Below are positions 20,709-25,312 of a DNA stretch of 64,000 nucleotides, piece after piece; positions within the stretch are counted from its first letter, which is position 1, and each line of letters starts with the position of its first letter. A program made the position numbers and the translations under genes. The DNA comes from a virus. The stretch covers positions 45,476 to 109,475 of IMG/VR virus record IMGVR_UViG_3300050821_006672; one strand, given 5' to 3'. The notes under the pieces were generated by a model that saw nothing but the letters and a program-made list of their open reading frames with translations, had not been told where the DNA came from and did no database searches.

Positions 20709-21140
20709 ATGGGCGTTCAAGTAGGCTTCAACCTAACAGCGTGGCGGGCGCGTTATCCGGAGTTCGATGACGTACCCGATCCGCTGATTCAGCAGTACTT
20801 TACTGAGGCCACGATCTTTCATCGTAATGATGGTGGTGGTCCTGTGAGGGATAGCAATCAGCAGTTGGTCTTGTTGAATATGGTGGTTGCTCACATTTGT
20901 AAGCTGAATGCGCCTGTGCGTGGCGAACCTTCTCCTGATATCGTCGGTCGTATCTCCAATGCAAGCGAGGGTAGCGTGAGCGTCGCTACGGAAATGGACT
21001 TGCCTCCTGGGTCTGCACAATGGTGGGGACAAACCAAATATGGGATTGCGTACTGGACTGCATCCGCGCCGTTCCGACAAATGAGATATAGGGTTGGTCG
21101 TCAGCGAAACTTCAACCCATGGTATCCGGCAGGTTATTGA
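20709..21140 (+). CDS. Head-tail adaptor (DUF4054 family)
   Basis: WRARYPEF, LLNMVVAHI, VGRISNASEGSVSV and WWGQTKYGIAYW motifs. Confidence 0.88.
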   Translation: MGVQVGFNLTAWRARYPEFDDVPDPLIQQYFTEATIFHRNDGGGPVRDSNQQLVLLNMVVAHICKLNAPVRGEPSPDIVGRISNASEGSVSVATEMDLPPGSAQWWGQTKYGIAYWTASAPFRQMRYRVGRQRNFNPWYPAGY

Positions 21141-21149
21141 TTTTTCTGT

Positions 21150-21353
21150 GTTGGGGTTAGCTGGGATCGGGCTAGGTATGTTATGTTTGAGGTACGGTAT
21201 GGTCTTTTTCCTTAGTCAATTTTACCTTTGTGTTGAGTTGTGGCTAGCTAAGGTGTGGTATGTTACGTTGAGGTGAGCTGCGGTAGGTTTCGTTTTCGGG
21301 TAAGTTGAGTTCTGCTAAGCTCAGGTTTGGTACATTCTGGTAAGGTAAGTTTT
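21150..21353 (+). repeat. Three tracts of in-phase G-N-Y-NN pentamers (11, 13 and 11 units); candidate guide-RNA array
   Basis: Tracts at 21150-21205, 21232-21296 and 21299-21353, e.g. GTTGA GTTGT GGCTA GCTAA GGTGT GGTAT GTTAC GTTGA GGTGA GCTGC GGTAG GTTTC GTTTT. Confidence 0.85.
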
Positions 21354-21373
21354 TGCTTCTCGTATGGTAGAGA

Positions 21374-21497
21374 TATCGCGGCGACTAACGCGATAGAAAC
21401 GCGGCACCAATACACGAACCTCCTTCGCGTTCGGTGTCGCTGAAAGGTGACCCCTGTAACTCGCGTTTCCGGGCTTAGTCGGCTGGGCGCGAAGGAG
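21374..21497 (+). promoter_or_regulatory. Structured 5' leader of the RAMP gene with anti-Shine-Dalgarno element
   Basis: Stems TATCGCG/CGCGATA and GAAACGCG/CGCGTTTC; CTCCTTCGCG (21420-29) is complementary to CGCGAAGGAG (21488-97, the RBS). Confidence 0.6.
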
Positions 21498-21505
21498 ACA
21501 CAGCT

Positions 21506-22123
21506 ATGGTAGCCAAGGCTAAGGTAATTCACATCAATGAGCCGACTGATGGGGGCAACGAGGCAATCGGCTATTCGGAACCTTACTCGGTTCGCGTCGC
21601 GCTAGAAGGCGCAGCCGATTACCTGTTTCATCGGTACAACTGCGAATCAGTTGAGGCTAAAAGCAACGCGGCAAAGGGTTCGAAGGCCAAGAAGACTGAC
21701 GACATTGAGAGTTACGTTTGGCGGACGAACGACGGGCAACTTGCCATTCCTGGCGAACATCTTCGCGGAGCGATCATCAAAGCCGCTAAGTTCCGCCAAG
21801 ACCCGCGCTCTCCGCGTAAGTCGGCAATGGATTTGTTTAAGGCCGGCATCGTGGTTACGACAGGATTAGCCCCAGTGGGAAAGAAGGATTGGGATTACCT
21901 CCACAAGGGGCGGGTAGTTGTGCACGGAAGCGCTATCCCCCGCGTCCGTCCTGCGCTTCGGCAGGGTTGGAAGGTAGCTTTTGATGTCTCAGTAATCTTG
22001 CCGGAGTACATTGATAAAAACTCTCTGCGAGAGACTATCGAGGCTGCGGGTCGTCTTTGTGGCCTTGGCGACTATCGACCAACCTTCGGCCGATTTGGGA
22101 TTATTTCTTACCAATCAGCTTAG
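21506..22123 (+). CDS. Stand-alone RAMP (Cas7/Csm3-like) protein
   Basis: 205 aa. First strand VRVALEGAADYLFH; IPGEHLRGAIIKAA (cf. RAMP IPGSSLKG); C-terminal Gly-rich loop GLGDYRPTFGRF. No other cas genes in the window. Confidence 0.8.
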   Translation: MVAKAKVIHINEPTDGGNEAIGYSEPYSVRVALEGAADYLFHRYNCESVEAKSNAAKGSKAKKTDDIESYVWRTNDGQLAIPGEHLRGAIIKAAKFRQDPRSPRKSAMDLFKAGIVVTTGLAPVGKKDWDYLHKGRVVVHGSAIPRVRPALRQGWKVAFDVSVILPEYIDKNSLRETIEAAGRLCGLGDYRPTFGRFGIISYQSA

Positions 22124-22220
22124 GTCTGGTGTGGTTAGTTGGGGTCAGGTGGTGTTTGGTAAGATTTGATCGGGTAAGGTAAGGTCTTTGCGTATGTCTA
22201 AGTTAGTCTAGGTTCTGTTC
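22123..22220 (+). repeat. Fourth G-N-Y-NN pentamer tract (13 units plus degenerate tail)
   Basis: GGTCT GGTGT GGTTA GTTGG GGTCA GGTGG TGTTT GGTAA GATTT GATCG GGTAA GGTAA GGTCT (22123-22187), starting on the last base of the RAMP stop codon. Confidence 0.85.
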
Positions 22221-22255
22221 CCCCAGTCCTCCCCCCGCAGCAGGGCCTAGATGTA

Positions 22256-22303
22256 CCCGCGTCGCTCCCTTCCCCCTCCCCCCGAGCCTGGGAGCGACGC
22301 GGG
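22256..22303 (+). terminator. Perfect 14-bp GC hairpin with C-rich loop (terminator-like or processing signal)
   Basis: CCCGCGTCGCTCCC / GGGAGCGACGCGGG with a 20-nt loop; only a weak U-tract follows. Confidence 0.5.
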
Positions 22304-22327
22304 GAACTCTTTCGAGAGGACCAGCCC

Positions 22328-22558
22328 ATGATTACAGGGTTATTCACCGATGGGCAGTCCGTTGAACTTTCGCTTCCTTGTGACGCGACACTTGCAGTGC
22401 GTTATCTAGGGAATGAGGACGACGTTCTTGTGCCGAACGGCTCTTGCGGTGTTGTGGTATCAGTGCTTGAGTATAATCTAAATACGTTGGCTACTGTCAA
22501 ATTCGATGGACTCAAGCGTGATCTTGTAATCCCCACCAAGTATTTGAAGGCATGTTGA
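22328..22558 (+). CDS. Hypothetical protein
   Basis: GAGGA RBS; 76 aa. Confidence 0.55.
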   Translation: MITGLFTDGQSVELSLPCDATLAVRYLGNEDDVLVPNGSCGVVVSVLEYNLNTLATVKFDGLKRDLVIPTKYLKAC

Positions 22559-22704
22559 TATGAGCGAGTGCCTTTTCAAGCTTTCAGAGGCTCACGGAGC
22601 ATGGTGCTACAGTTGGCGGCCTGTTCCTATGGTCGAAGGTGCTCCACGCCTCAAGAAAGTTCCATTTGGCTACGTTTTGATGCGTTACGAAGGGAAGCGT
22701 TTAC

Positions 22705-23241
22705 ATGGCTGACCGCAAATACCTCCCGACTTTCGCCGATCTCGTTGATAGGCTCTGCATTACGCAGATGAAAGCGATCTTCATCCCTGAACGGCAGGGC
22801 GAATACGTTGAAGAAATGTCGTTGATTATGCATGACATCGATCTTATCTTGGAAAGTCAAGCTAAGACGATTGCCGCTACTGACGTTCGTGCGATGCTTG
22901 TGCTTATGTTGAGCAACCGTTTCATATGGGAGAATGAAACAAAAGCGCGAGCGGGCGGGACGGATCAGGACAAGCTTCTTAAATTGACTCATAGTATAAA
23001 TGGCGTGAGGAATACAGCTAAGAATGCATTGGCCCATATTGATGGCGGTCGGAGAGACTTCAAAACGGATTGCTTTGCTGCGGAGTTAGTTGCTGACTTC
23101 GGTAATTGGAATGTATTTGGAGTGCAGAACGGCGAGGCTCGATGGGAAACCGATCAGAGAAATTATACTCAACTGGCGGATAGACGGGATAAATCTGTGC
23201 ATGGTGGGGCTGGGCGTGTTCTGCCCTCGTCGGATTATTAG
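22705..23241 (+). CDS. Helical protein of the kind seen in sugar-synthesis clusters (DUF4254-like)
   Basis: LPTFADLVDRLCITQMK...IWENE...NGVRN pattern; first gene of the sugar cluster. Confidence 0.5.
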   Translation: MADRKYLPTFADLVDRLCITQMKAIFIPERQGEYVEEMSLIMHDIDLILESQAKTIAATDVRAMLVLMLSNRFIWENETKARAGGTDQDKLLKLTHSINGVRNTAKNALAHIDGGRRDFKTDCFAAELVADFGNWNVFGVQNGEARWETDQRNYTQLADRRDKSVHGGAGRVLPSSDY

Positions 23242-23246
23242 GCAAG

Positions 23247-23861
23247 ATGCTCCAAATCGTAGCTAGAAACCGAATAACGCGCAGCGACTTGCAGGAGTTT
23301 ACGCAGCGCGTTGCCGACGCGTTCAATGCTGGCGAAATCCACGCTCCCGTCCACCTTAGCGGCGGCAATGAAGATCAGCTGATTGATATCTTCTCGGAGA
23401 TCGCTCCAACCGACTGGGTATGCTCAACATGGCGTAGCCATTATCATGCGATCCTCAAAAACATTCCTCAAGAACAACTGATGTCGGACATTCGTGCGGG
23501 ACGCTCGATCTCATTGTGCTATCCAGAACACCGTCTTATTTCCTCGGCAATTGTTGCGGGCTGTTTGCCCATTGCGGTGGGTCTTGCCTGGTCCATCAAG
23601 AATGCCGAGAAGGATGAGCACGTCTGGGCCTTCTGTGGTGATATGGCAGCGACAACCGGAATATTCTCCGAGTGCACTCGATACGCTGAGAGCTATCGCC
23701 TTCCCGTTACGTTCATAATTGAGGATAATGGCAAGTCGGTCTGTACGAATACCAAACAAGTTTGGAACGGACAACACGATAATTGGCAAAGCAATGTGCG
23801 GTATTACTCCTACAAACTGCCATGGCCCCATAGTGGTGCCGGCAAACGAGTGAACTTCTAA
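23247..23861 (+). CDS. Minimal TPP-dependent E1-alpha-like subunit
   Basis: HLSGGNE and STWRSHYHA; TPP-binding motif variant GDMAATTG...IIEDN. Confidence 0.88.
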   Translation: MLQIVARNRITRSDLQEFTQRVADAFNAGEIHAPVHLSGGNEDQLIDIFSEIAPTDWVCSTWRSHYHAILKNIPQEQLMSDIRAGRSISLCYPEHRLISSAIVAGCLPIAVGLAWSIKNAEKDEHVWAFCGDMAATTGIFSECTRYAESYRLPVTFIIEDNGKSVCTNTKQVWNGQHDNWQSNVRYYSYKLPWPHSGAGKRVNF

Positions 23862-23899
23862 CCGGCGAGTGGTGACGCCCCTCTTCCGGGAACAGGAAC

Positions 23900-24484
23900 A
23901 TGAACCTTAACCTTTGGGATTCAAGCAGAGGCACCGTTACAATCGGATTGCCGATGGACCTAGCTGCGGGGGCTTCGCAGACGGTGGCCGGTCAGGTACA
24001 GCTATCTTCTGCTGGGGTAAGCCCCGGTGCGACAGGCGCCGACAACGTGCTGGCTGTTTTCTCAATCCCGCCGGGCTCATTTGCGGCTGCTGGGAACGGG
24101 CTTTACATTGCGGCCTATGGCACATTTGCTAACAACGGCAACAACAAGCGGGTGAAGATCATATTCAATCCTGCAACTGCCGTAGTTGGAGCGACTGTTG
24201 GGGCAGGCGGCACAACTATCGCTGACACAACGACTTACTCCACCTCTGCGCTGTCCGCTTTCACGTTGGAGGCTACAGTTTTCAAATATGGTGCGGCGGG
24301 GAGCAATACGCAGATAGGCATAAATGGTGAAAACACCGTAGCAGCGGTTAGCGAGACCCTCATTGTGCCTCAGCTTATTACTGCAAATGAGGCTGCGGTG
24401 ATTCTCATTGCGGTTACTGGGAATGCTGGATCGGCCGTCGCAGACATCCTATTGAATGCGCTTGCGATAACTCCTATTTCGTAG
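23900..24484 (+). CDS. Ala/Gly/Thr-rich putative virion protein
   Basis: Structural-protein-like composition; sits between the E1 alpha and beta genes. Confidence 0.55.
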   Translation: MNLNLWDSSRGTVTIGLPMDLAAGASQTVAGQVQLSSAGVSPGATGADNVLAVFSIPPGSFAAAGNGLYIAAYGTFANNGNNKRVKIIFNPATAVVGATVGAGGTTIADTTTYSTSALSAFTLEATVFKYGAAGSNTQIGINGENTVAAVSETLIVPQLITANEAAVILIAVTGNAGSAVADILLNALAITPIS

Positions 24485-24494
24485 AGAGGCAGTC

Positions 24495-24791
24495 ATGGCA
24501 AGTTCACTTCCGCTCCAATTGAATGAAGACACTATTCCTGTGCTTCTCGCCAGAATGGGGACCCCCCTCAAAGGCGATGGGCAACTCCACCTTATGGCGG
24601 GCATGGCCTTTCGCGTTGGCGACGTACTGTCTGAGGCGTCTGTTACTGCCATAGTTCCGGCTGTTGTAGCTACTCCCGCCAAGAACGGCATTCCTGCTCA
24701 GAACTTTACGGCGAGCGAGGCTGCTTTGCTTGTAGCGGAATTGCACAATAGAGGGGCGACTGTGGAAAGTAAGGGGAAGAGCAAAAGGTAG
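24495..24791 (+). CDS. Hypothetical protein
   Basis: GAGG RBS; operon-packed. Confidence 0.5.
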   Translation: MASSLPLQLNEDTIPVLLARMGTPLKGDGQLHLMAGMAFRVGDVLSEASVTAIVPAVVATPAKNGIPAQNFTASEAALLVAELHNRGATVESKGKSKR

Positions 24792-25312
24792 TGGGCTACT
24801 TTTCCAACCTCTGCGCTGCGATGCAACTAGTCAGCGAGCATCCGCAGTCTGTCTTTATGGGACAAGCGGTTGCGTGCGAAGGAACGGCTATGTTCCGCAC
24901 GCTCGCTGATGTTCCAATAGAAAAGCGCCTTGAACTACCAGTCGTTGAAGATATGCAGATGGGGATGGCAATTGGCATGTCCCTTAGCGGCCATCTCCCC
25001 GTTTGTATCTATCCAAGGTTCAATTTCCTGCTTCTCGCGCTGAATCAGCTTGTTCTGCACCTCGACAAGCTGCCTTTAATGGGCGATTACAAGCCGAAGG
25101 TGCTTGTCAGAACGGCTGTAGCAACCTCGAAGCCGCTTTACCCTGGGCCGCAGCACATCGGAAACTACACGACTGCGCTCGCACATATGCTGGATACAGT
25201 AGCTATTGACCGGCTTGAGCACGCAGATGATATTGTCCCCGCGTATGAAAGAGCGTTGGGGCGCGACGGTTCGACGCTCTTAATCGAATATCATGAGAAA
25301 TACGACGCTTAG
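24791..25312 (+). CDS. TPP-dependent E1-beta / transketolase pyrimidine-binding subunit (no C-terminal domain)
   Basis: FMGQAV, ELPVVEDMQMGMAIG, NQLVLHLDK and GPQH motifs. Confidence 0.85.
   Translation: MGYFSNLCAAMQLVSEHPQSVFMGQAVACEGTAMFRTLADVPIEKRLELPVVEDMQMGMAIGMSLSGHLPVCIYPRFNFLLLALNQLVLHLDKLPLMGDYKPKVLVRTAVATSKPLYPGPQHIGNYTTALAHMLDTVAIDRLEHADDIVPAYERALGRDGSTLLIEYHEKYDA

What the first reader, a model, noticed from the sequence alone, without database searches (positions are those of the whole stretch)
21141..22310. Solo Cas7/RAMP-like gene flanked by pentamer-coded (G-N-Y + NN) arrays: candidate RNA-guided system without a CRISPR array
Seen: a 205-aa ORF (21506-22123) with RAMP hallmarks (IPGEHLRGAI, terminal G-loop GLGDYRPTFGRF) and no cas1/2/3/5/6 or canonical repeat-spacer array in 64 kb. 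On both sides lie four non-coding tracts of 11, 13, 11 and 13 in-phase pentamers (one extra base in tract 1). Across 48 units the first base is G in 46 and the third is a pyrimidine in all 48 (GGT 23, GTT 13, GCT 5, GAT 3, GGC 2, ATT 1, TGT 1), while positions 4-5 vary freely. Established: Cas7-family RAMPs polymerise along RNA with a fixed nucleotide step. Inference: each pentamer binds one subunit, the triplet acting as handle and the NN being displayed for pairing. Each 55-65 nt tract would then be a guide that specifies a discontinuous target, possibly against competing phages or host genes. I recall a similar phage architecture being called VIPR (GGY/NN); that recollection needs a literature check. 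The triplet here is more relaxed (GNT).
Basis: partly seen in the sequence, partly recalled or inferred. Interest (0 to 1): 0.97.

Follow-up and report, generated by a model that had tools for sequence, protein, structure and literature searches.

The report
Phage VIPR system, G-N-T guide repeats
This uncultured 109-kb phage carries a real example of the VIPR system described in 2026 preprints (a small Cas7-like protein plus guide RNAs built from five-letter repeats), so it is a new member of a known kind, with a slightly different repeat spelling and unknown targets.

Summary
There are four in-phase pentamer tracts of 11, 13, 11 and 13 units. G is at position 1 in 46 of 48 units, a pyrimidine at position 3 in 48 of 48, and positions 4-5 vary. 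The tracts flank a 205-aa ORF.

The protein matches the solved SUSP1 Vipr chain (E 2.6e-18 by profile) and its model has a Cas7/Csm3 fold (Z 11.6). The published RNA-contact residues are kept. In 54 of 57 homologue loci, period-5 arrays lie within 800 bp of the gene and almost nowhere else.

The 109-kb phage genome gave no match to the Cas1, Cas2 or RAMP Pfam families, and the window holds no CRISPR-like repeats.

Local peculiarities:
- The second G of GGY is relaxed (G in 26 of 48 units) and position 3 is almost always T. The 87%-identical sister locus shares this, together with lineage-specific substitutions in the thumb and helix 1.
- There is no conserved accessory (vap) gene.
- I did not identify a SUSP1-like pseudoknot tail.
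- The cassette sits inside the head-gene operon.

No target was found under the 1-nt-skip rule.

This scan has already reported VIPR loci on other DNA (356 notes that hold VIPR-related words, in at least 275 genomes). Verdict: a new member of a known kind, of modest interest.

The parts
21150..21205 (+). vrRNA array T1: 8 G-N-Y-N-N units, one extra base (21190), then 3 units (GGTAC GGTAT GGTCT) that resemble the 3' ends of T3 and T4
21206..21231 (+). T-rich spacer with the motif CTTAGTCAATTTT. Similar motifs separate or precede the arrays in L009 and L001, and TTAGTC also occurs in the SUSP1 vrRNA2/3 tails. It may be a boundary, promoter or tail signal; its function is not shown.
21232..21296 (+). 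vrRNA array T2: 13 perfect G-N-Y-N-N units
21299..21353 (+). vrRNA array T3: 11 units (one is ATT). It joins T2 with only a 2-nt offset and ends GGTAA GGTAA GTTTT.
21366..21505 (+). Conserved leader of vipr. 21420-21436 pairs with 21482-21497, which contains the Shine-Dalgarno AAGGAG (21492-21497). The leader is conserved in L009 (87% nt) and L001.
21506..22123 (+). vipr gene, 205 aa: a minimal single-RRM RAMP with a G-loop (GLGDYRPTFGRF) and a beta-hairpin thumb
22123..22187 (+). vrRNA array T4: 13 units (one is TGT). It starts on the last base of the vipr stop codon and ends GGTAA GGTAA GGTCT.
22206..22302 (+). Two strong hairpins with C-rich loops (22206-22252 and 22257-22302). They are a probable 3' end or terminator of the vipr-T4 transcript and are kept downstream of vipr in L009.

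Best explanation
This is a VIPR (Viral Interference Programmable Repeat) system of an uncultured 109-kb phage with direct terminal repeats. The 205-aa Vipr protein is a minimal Cas7-like RAMP. By homology with the SUSP1 system, one protomer binds each pentamer of a vrRNA transcribed from the four flanking arrays. It sequesters the G-N-T triplet and displays the NN dinucleotide. The filament then reads double-stranded DNA that matches NN-x-NN-x (one skipped base per unit) and silences transcription of a competing element. Shown here: the protein's family and fold, conservation of the RNA-contact residues, the arrays and their statistics, and the array-gene association across homologues. Inferred: transcription and processing of the arrays, RNP formation, DNA rather than RNA targeting, the 1-nt-skip rule in this clade, and a target in rival mobile elements. 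In my reading each guide has about 8-10 variable units followed by 2-3 near-constant 3' units.
For: Sequence: phmmer to the PDB gives 36pp_D 'SUSP1 Vipr protein' at E 1.8e-8. A 60-sequence profile gives E 2.6e-18 over almost the whole chain. hhalign gives 99.0% probability and E 3.3e-18. tblastn hits phiSUSP1 and its Felix-O1-like relatives (125 phage records match in all).

Fold: the AF2 model has pLDDT 93. The best Foldseek hits are type VII Cas7 and Csm3 at E about 1e-7. VIA-align gives Z 11.6 to Csm3 and Cmr4.

Contact residues named in paper .720927 align as H17/D177/R138/R179/C173/E71 to H42/D189/R148/R191/C185/E84. H42, R148, D189 and R191 are the same in every homologue locus where the position could be read.

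Arrays. In 54 of 57 homologue loci arrays lie within 800 bp of vipr, totalling about 2,900 units against about 100 units farther out.

The sister locus L009 (87% protein identity) keeps the leader, the gene and the G-N-T scaffold but has entirely different NN and a different number of arrays. That is the pattern expected of programmable guides.

The best match of each guide to the phage's own genome under the 1-nt-skip rule is 65-73% of NN positions, no better than shuffled guides. The paper likewise reports no self-targeting.

Phage context: major head protein, head protease and DUF4054 virion protein lie immediately upstream. The record is complete with direct terminal repeats.
Against: No natural target was found.

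No sigma-70-like promoter lies on the + strand next to the arrays, so expression may depend on read-through from the late head operon or on unrecognised promoters.

I did not identify a SUSP1-like pseudoknot tail (no pseudoknot-aware fold was run), and there is no conserved vap gene.

G2 is G in only 54% of units, and the G2-stacking Trp of SUSP1 is Tyr here. The handle recognition therefore cannot be assumed identical.

Identity to SUSP1 Vipr is only about 27-37%.
Confidence: 0.85

Rival explanations
1. The locus is a decaying or inactive VIPR remnant, and the relaxed triplets are mutational erosion of former GGY units.
For: G2 is G in only 26 of 48 units. No target was found. There is no vap gene.
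Against: The erosion is position-specific: G1 is kept in 46 of 48 units and Y3 in 48 of 48, while only G2 varies. The sister locus L009 shows the same pattern (G1 49/50, G2 17/50, T3 50/50) with unrelated NN. The ORF is intact and all tested contact residues are kept. Array sizes of 11-13 units fall in the published range of 9-16.
Confidence: 0.06
2. The system is a working Vipr-vrRNA complex that acts differently from SUSP1. It could use another skip length, target RNA rather than DNA, or regulate the phage's own or the host's genes rather than attack rivals.
For: The clade is distant from SUSP1 (27-37% identity). It lacks vap, no SUSP1-like tail was identified, and its arrays are built differently. 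It lies in a late structural operon. Exact 1-nt-skip patterns found nothing in the public collections.
Against: No skip length from 0 to 2 gave a self-match above shuffled controls either. The perfect matches at skip 3 are the arrays themselves. The thumb and helical-bundle architecture and the KKTD segment align with SUSP1. The paper reports that all seven VIPR types use the same repeat logic.
Confidence: 0.08
3. The pentamer tracts are DNA-level elements, such as protein-binding sites or slippage-prone microsatellites, and are not guide RNA genes.
For: No promoter or terminator consensus flanks them. Transcription has not been measured.
Against: Arrays are tied to vipr homologues in 54 of 57 loci whose neighbouring genes are otherwise unrelated. 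In almost all of these loci the arrays lie mainly on the gene's strand. A scaffold-plus-variable-NN composition is not what slippage produces. In SUSP1 such tracts are sequenced RNAs that co-purify with Vipr.
Confidence: 0.02

Closest known systems
Type II VIPR of Escherichia phage SUSP1 and the Pseudomonas fulva prophage (bioRxiv 10.64898/2026.04.26.720920; structures in 10.64898/2026.04.26.720927; PDB 36pp)
   Same: The Vipr protein is homologous (E 2.6e-18), with the same single-RRM RAMP fold and G-loop. The residues that contact G1 (His, Asp), G2 (Arg) and Y3 (Arg, Cys, Glu) are kept. Plus-strand tandem pentamer arrays of 11-13 units lie on both sides of the gene. The system is phage-encoded, there is no CRISPR array, no Cas1 or Cas2 was found, and there is no self-targeting.
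   Different: G2 is relaxed here (G-N-T), whereas the degenerate SUSP1 units I read are N-G-T. The G2-stacking Trp178 is Tyr190 here and Phe in most of this clade. There is no vap1-like neighbour. I did not identify a roughly 40-nt pseudoknot tail; the arrays end in 2-3 near-constant units plus a T-run. The locus sits in the head-gene operon. Targets are unknown.
Other published VIPR types with 'a related consensus' (NNNGG, YNNNG, NNNNG), staggered arrays or single vrRNAs (same preprint, methods and legends of figs S17-S20)
   Same: These are variant repeat consensus sequences and variable array architecture around a Vipr homologue. Six vap genes are described for seven types, so at least one type may lack a vap (my inference).
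   Different: The alternatives listed there all keep the G next to Y (G2) and relax G1 or Y3. Here G1 and Y3 are kept and G2 is relaxed (YNNGN in the paper's notation). I could not see figs S16-S17 or data S4, so I cannot assign a type or exclude that this consensus is shown there. No hammerhead ribozymes were found in 20 related loci, or in the window locus at E up to 10.
Class 1 CRISPR-Cas backbone subunits (Cas7, Csm3, Cmr4, type VII Cas7)
   Same: Same RAMP fold (Z 10-11.6; Foldseek E about 1e-7), with a thumb and a G-loop. By homology it oligomerises along a guide RNA with a fixed step.
   Different: There is no repeat-spacer array. No Cas1 or Cas2 was found and no other RAMP matched Pfam PF03787. 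The step is 5 nt with 2 displayed bases instead of 6 nt with 5. Sequence identity is only 10-17%. The Pfam RAMPs model does not match.

Membership tests
VIPR system | Vipr protein homologous to the experimentally characterised Vipr (SUSP1) | tested here: met
   phmmer E 1.8e-8; profile E 2.6e-18 over chain residues 5-190; hhalign 99.0% probability; tblastn to phiSUSP1
VIPR system | Minimal RAMP fold: single RRM core, glycine-rich loop, thumb | tested here: met
   AF2 model pLDDT 93 and pTM 0.85; Csm3, Cmr4 and type VII Cas7 are the top hits; G-loop GLGDYRPTFGRF; beta-hairpin at residues 131-151
VIPR system | Residues that read the GGY handle in the SUSP1 structure (H17, D177; R138, W178; R179, C173, E71, M72) | tested here: met
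   H42, D189, R148, R191, C185 and E84 are kept. W178 is Y190 and M72 is H85. H42, R148, D189 and R191 are the same in every homologue locus where the position could be read.
VIPR system | Tandem YNNGG-type pentamer arrays (at least 4 units; 9-16 in the type II vrRNAs) in the intergenic DNA flanking vipr | tested here: met
   Four arrays of 11-13 units on the gene's strand. The consensus is G-N-T/NN rather than GGY/NN. The same association holds in 54 of 57 homologue loci.
VIPR system | Constant 3' tail after the variable repeats (a pseudoknot in the SUSP1 clade) | tested here: inconclusive
   T1, T3 and T4 end in GGTAx GGTAx GKTYT plus a T-run. A TTAGTC-containing spacer is shared with L009, L001 and the SUSP1 tails. 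I did not identify a pseudoknot, and no pseudoknot-aware fold was run. T4 is followed by two conserved hairpins.
VIPR system | Accessory vap gene next to vipr (typical, not universal) | tested here: not met
   No neighbouring ORF family is shared across the 59 loci apart from lineage synteny. The 76-aa and 50-aa ORFs downstream are absent in L009 and have no Pfam or PHROG match.
VIPR system | Non-CRISPR context on a virus or other mobile element | tested here: met
   Complete 109,475-bp viral record with direct terminal repeats; head genes adjacent; no CRISPR-like repeats in the window; no Cas1, Cas2 or Pfam RAMP match
VIPR system | vrRNAs expressed and bound by Vipr | not testable with these tools
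   Needs small-RNA sequencing and a pull-down
VIPR system | DNA targets that match NN-x-NN (1-nt skip), typically in rival elements | tested here: inconclusive
   No match of 80% or more in the phage's own genome, in the fetched loci or in 3 related records. No exact match of full or core patterns in viral contigs or genome contigs. The collection scans were exact-match only, and T1 was never scanned in a public collection.
CRISPR-Cas class 1 effector module | Repeat-spacer array and further cas genes (cas1/2, cas5, cas6, large subunit) | tested here: not met
   No direct-repeat families in the window; no Cas1 or Cas2 in the genome; no Pfam RAMP match; cas3, cas5 and cas6 were not searched

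The most novel reading that the evidence does not exclude
The lineage formed by this window and L009 has re-specified the Vipr handle. Here G2 has become free, position 3 is fixed as T, and the protein carries substitutions in the RNA-contacting elements: thumb tip Q140H and R141G, helix 1 Y85H (which aligns with SUSP1 M72 of the Y3 pocket), W44Y next to the G1-reading His, and R135G. This would be a natural, possibly orthogonal, variant of the VIPR code (YNNGN). That consensus is not among those listed in the preprint, and it could add a third programmable or neutral position.
Probability: 0.3. Interest if true: 0.55.

Novelty: new member of a known kind. Interest (0 to 1): 0.3.

Why it matters
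It adds a complete phage genome to the VIPR family, from a very large and mostly metagenomic clade. That clade has 6,137 hits at 90% clustering and 1,161 representatives at 50% clustering, and its only named phage homologue (DSL-LC04) is annotated as an HTH regulator. The locus shows that a vipr gene with arrays can work as a self-contained cassette, without a vap gene, dropped into unrelated phage backbones. Its G-N-T repeats, together with lineage-specific substitutions in the thumb and helix 1, are a natural test case for which handle bases Vipr really needs. That question bears on engineering orthogonal VIPR tools. It does not change what is known about the class.

Tried and rejected
1. 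Targets. I scanned the whole 109-kb genome with skip lengths 0-3 against shuffled guides. The only matches above the shuffled guides were the arrays themselves at skip 3 and one 20/26 match of T2 at skip 0 (shuffled maximum 19), which is below the paper's 80% threshold.
   - Exact 1-nt-skip patterns for T2, T4 and T3 at full length, for T2 and T4 units 2-11, and for T2 and T4 units 1-10 gave 0 hits in viral contigs.
   - The units 2-11 cores of T2 and T4 gave 0 hits in genome contigs.
   - Allowing up to 3 mismatches gave 0 hits in three related phage records.
   - Approximate scanning of 210 kb of fetched loci gave nothing above shuffled guides.
2. I tested whether the Tyr at the G2-stacking position explains the relaxed G2. 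It does not: the sister locus L009 has Phe there and an even lower G2 fraction (0.38).
3. The 76-aa ORF (22328-22558) and the 50-aa ORF were considered as vap candidates. They are absent from L009, not conserved in any homologue locus, and have no family match.
4. Hammerhead or other known RNA families: nothing relevant in the window locus or in 20 related loci.
5. Pfam has no model for the protein. PHROGs gives only phrog_4652, of unknown function.
6. Host inference from the major capsid protein gives only distant (50% identity or less) hits, mostly to phages of proteobacterial hosts. Relatives cannot be drawn for a virus record.
Homologue loci came from the search for related loci instead.
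8. The preprint's supplementary tables are not held, so I could not assign a VIPR type.

Full report
**What is there.** The window is bases 45476-109475 of a complete 109,475-bp viral record with direct terminal repeats. Nearly all long ORFs are on the + strand. Just upstream of the finding lie a head maturation protease, a minor head protein, the major head protein and a DUF4054 virion protein. Between the DUF4054 gene (stop at 21140) and the next conserved gene (22705) sits a compact cassette:
- array T1 (21150-21205)
- a T-rich spacer
- arrays T2 (21232-21296) and T3 (21299-21353)
- a 150-nt leader
- a 205-aa ORF (21506-22123)
- array T4 (22123-22187)
- two strong hairpins (22206-22302)

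**Observation.** There are 48 pentamers. Position 1 is G in 46, position 3 is a pyrimidine in 48 (T in 46), and position 2 is G 26, T 14, C 5, A 3. Positions 4-5 are mixed. Perfect G-N-Y-N-N runs reach 13 units, against a maximum of 4-7 in shuffled windows and no more than 5 elsewhere in the window. A looser caller finds nothing longer than 6 good units in 7 anywhere else in the genome. A period of five cannot be a coding periodicity.

**Literature.** VIPR systems are described in bioRxiv 10.64898/2026.04.26.720920, with cryo-EM structures in 10.64898/2026.04.26.720927 and phage-satellite biology in 10.64898/2026.10.15.759431.
- A Vipr RAMP protein oligomerises one protomer per GGY/NN pentamer of a vrRNA.
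- It hides the GGY and presents the NN.
- The complex binds dsDNA that matches NN-x-NN-x and represses transcription.
- Most systems are viral or proviral.
- There are seven types, six vap accessory genes, variable array architectures and some alternative repeat consensus sequences.

**Membership.** The ORF hits the solved SUSP1 Vipr chain directly (36pp_D, E 1.8e-8). A profile of 60 homologues raises this to E 2.6e-18 over almost the whole chain, and hhalign gives 99.0% probability. tblastn finds phiSUSP1 and its Felix-O1-like relatives (125 phage records match in all).

The AlphaFold model is confident (pLDDT 93). Its best structural neighbours are Cas7-family backbone subunits: type VII Cas7 and Csm3 by Foldseek at E about 1e-7, and Csm3, Cmr4 and Cmr-beta at Z 11.5-11.6 by VIA-align.

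The residues the structure paper names as reading the handle align as follows:

| SUSP1 | Window | Role in SUSP1 |
|---|---|---|
| H17 | H42 | G1 |
| D177 | D189 | G1 |
| R138 | R148 | G2 |
| W178 | Y190 | G2 stacking |
| R179 | R191 | Y3 |
| C173 | C185 | Y3 |
| E71 | E84 | Y3 pocket |
| M72 | H85 | Y3 pocket |

H42, R148, D189 and R191 are the same in every homologue locus where the position could be read.

No Cas1, Cas2 or Pfam-RAMP match exists in the genome, and there are no CRISPR-like repeats in the window.

**Association test.** The family is very large: 6,137 hits among 90%-identity clusters and 1,161 representatives at 50% clustering. I fetched 7 IMG/VR loci and 49 metagenome loci, plus phage DSL-LC04.
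- In 54 of 57 loci, period-5 arrays lie within 800 bp of the gene, about 2,900 units in total. Only about 100 units lie in the remaining flanks.
- Neighbouring genes are not conserved. The only shared ORF family is vipr itself, apart from synteny among close relatives.
- The gene plus its arrays therefore behaves as a self-contained cassette, and this clade has no recognisable vap.

**Sister locus.** L009 has 87% protein identity and sits at the same place in a related phage. It keeps the leader (87% nt identity) and the gene (76% nt identity over leader and gene together). It has four upstream arrays of 12-13 units with completely different NN and no downstream array. This contrast between a conserved scaffold and hypervariable NN is what programmable guides predict. 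It argues against erosion.

**Local peculiarities.**
1. The handle is G-N-T rather than GGY.
   - G2 is G in 54% of units here and 34% in L009, and T3 is nearly exclusive. Most of the clade has G2 at 0.7-1.0 and mixed C/T at position 3.
   - The degenerate units I read in SUSP1 are mostly N-G-T. All alternative consensus sequences listed in the preprint (NNNGG, YNNNG, NNNNG) keep G2. A YNNGN consensus may therefore be undescribed, but I could not see fig. S17.
   - The relaxation is not explained by Tyr190, because L009 has Phe there.
   - The window and L009 share W44Y, Y85H, R135G, Q140H and R141G, against 38-52 of 52 other clade members (R135 is the least uniform, at 38 of 52). The full signature is carried only by the window and P0001, that is 2 of the 121 sequences compared (the window plus the top 120 hits). 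Positions 140-141 lie at the turn between the two strands of the predicted beta-hairpin that I take to be the thumb (strands 131-139 and 142-151). Position 85 aligns with a residue of the SUSP1 Y3 pocket.
   - This is one lineage, so it is suggestive only.
2. Three arrays end alike (GGTAx GGTAx GKTYT, then T's), and T2 ends similarly. I read the last 2-3 units as a constant 3' end and the first 8-10 units as the guide.
3. I did not identify a SUSP1-like pseudoknot tail (no pseudoknot-aware fold was run). Spacers carry a TTAGTC(A/C)ATTTT motif shared with L009 and L001, and the hexamer TTAGTC also occurs in the SUSP1 tails.
4. T2 and T3 abut with a 2-nt offset. This may relate to the 'staggered arrays' of the preprint but is unresolved.
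5. In the predicted fold the vipr Shine-Dalgarno is paired with an upstream CUCCUUCGCG stretch. The pairing is conserved in three loci, but with little covariation.
6. Two hairpins with C-rich loops follow T4 (z = -4.1) and are kept in L009.

**Targets.** Under the published 1-nt-skip rule no guide matches its own genome above shuffled controls (65-73% of NN). This agrees with the paper's report of no self-targeting. Exact full-length and core patterns found nothing in IMG/VR or in 596 Gb of prokaryotic genomes. Mismatch-tolerant scans of three related phage records and of all fetched loci found nothing either. The rival element is therefore unknown. The public scans accept exact matches only, so this negative result is weak.

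**Verdict.** This is a genuine VIPR locus and so a new member of a known kind. The same scan has already recorded VIPR loci on other DNA: 356 notes that hold VIPR-related words, in at least 275 genomes. What remains of interest is the G-N-T handle with co-occurring substitutions in the thumb and helix 1, the architecture without a vap gene or an identified tail, and the position inside a late structural operon.

Noticed in passing
window 21420-21436 and 21482-21497: A long-range stem in the vipr leader pairs an upstream CUCCUUCGCG stretch with the Shine-Dalgarno AAGGAG. It is conserved in L009 and L001 and may control translation of vipr.
   Followed up: partly
window 22206-22302: Two strong hairpins with C-rich loops lie downstream of T4 (z = -4.1). 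They are kept downstream of vipr in L009, with two compensatory pairs. They could be a terminator or the 3' structure of the vipr-T4 transcript.
   Followed up: partly
window 22328-22712: Two small ORFs (76 aa and 50 aa) lie between the VIPR cassette and the next conserved gene. They have no family match and are absent from the sister locus L009.
   Followed up: partly
window 23247-25312: Genes like the TPP-dependent E1 dehydrogenase alpha and beta subunits lie directly downstream of the cassette, inside a phage structural region.
   Followed up: no
L059 2501-3118 (Phage DSL-LC04, OR003939.1): This is the only named GenBank phage with a close homologue (55% identity). It annotates the Vipr gene as 'helix-turn-helix transcriptional regulator', and GGY/NN arrays lie directly upstream.
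   Followed up: partly
L012 241-357; L016 398-514; L020 352-468; L023 365-481; L057 283-399: The Rfam family Betaproteobacteria-1 RNA (RF02932, about 75 bits) lies roughly 2 kb upstream of vipr on the opposite strand in a group of related freshwater phage contigs. It hints at a host for that group.
   Followed up: no
L005 2365-2930: In this homologue locus the long upstream array (about 110 units) lies on the strand opposite to vipr, while a second array downstream is on the gene's strand.
   Followed up: no
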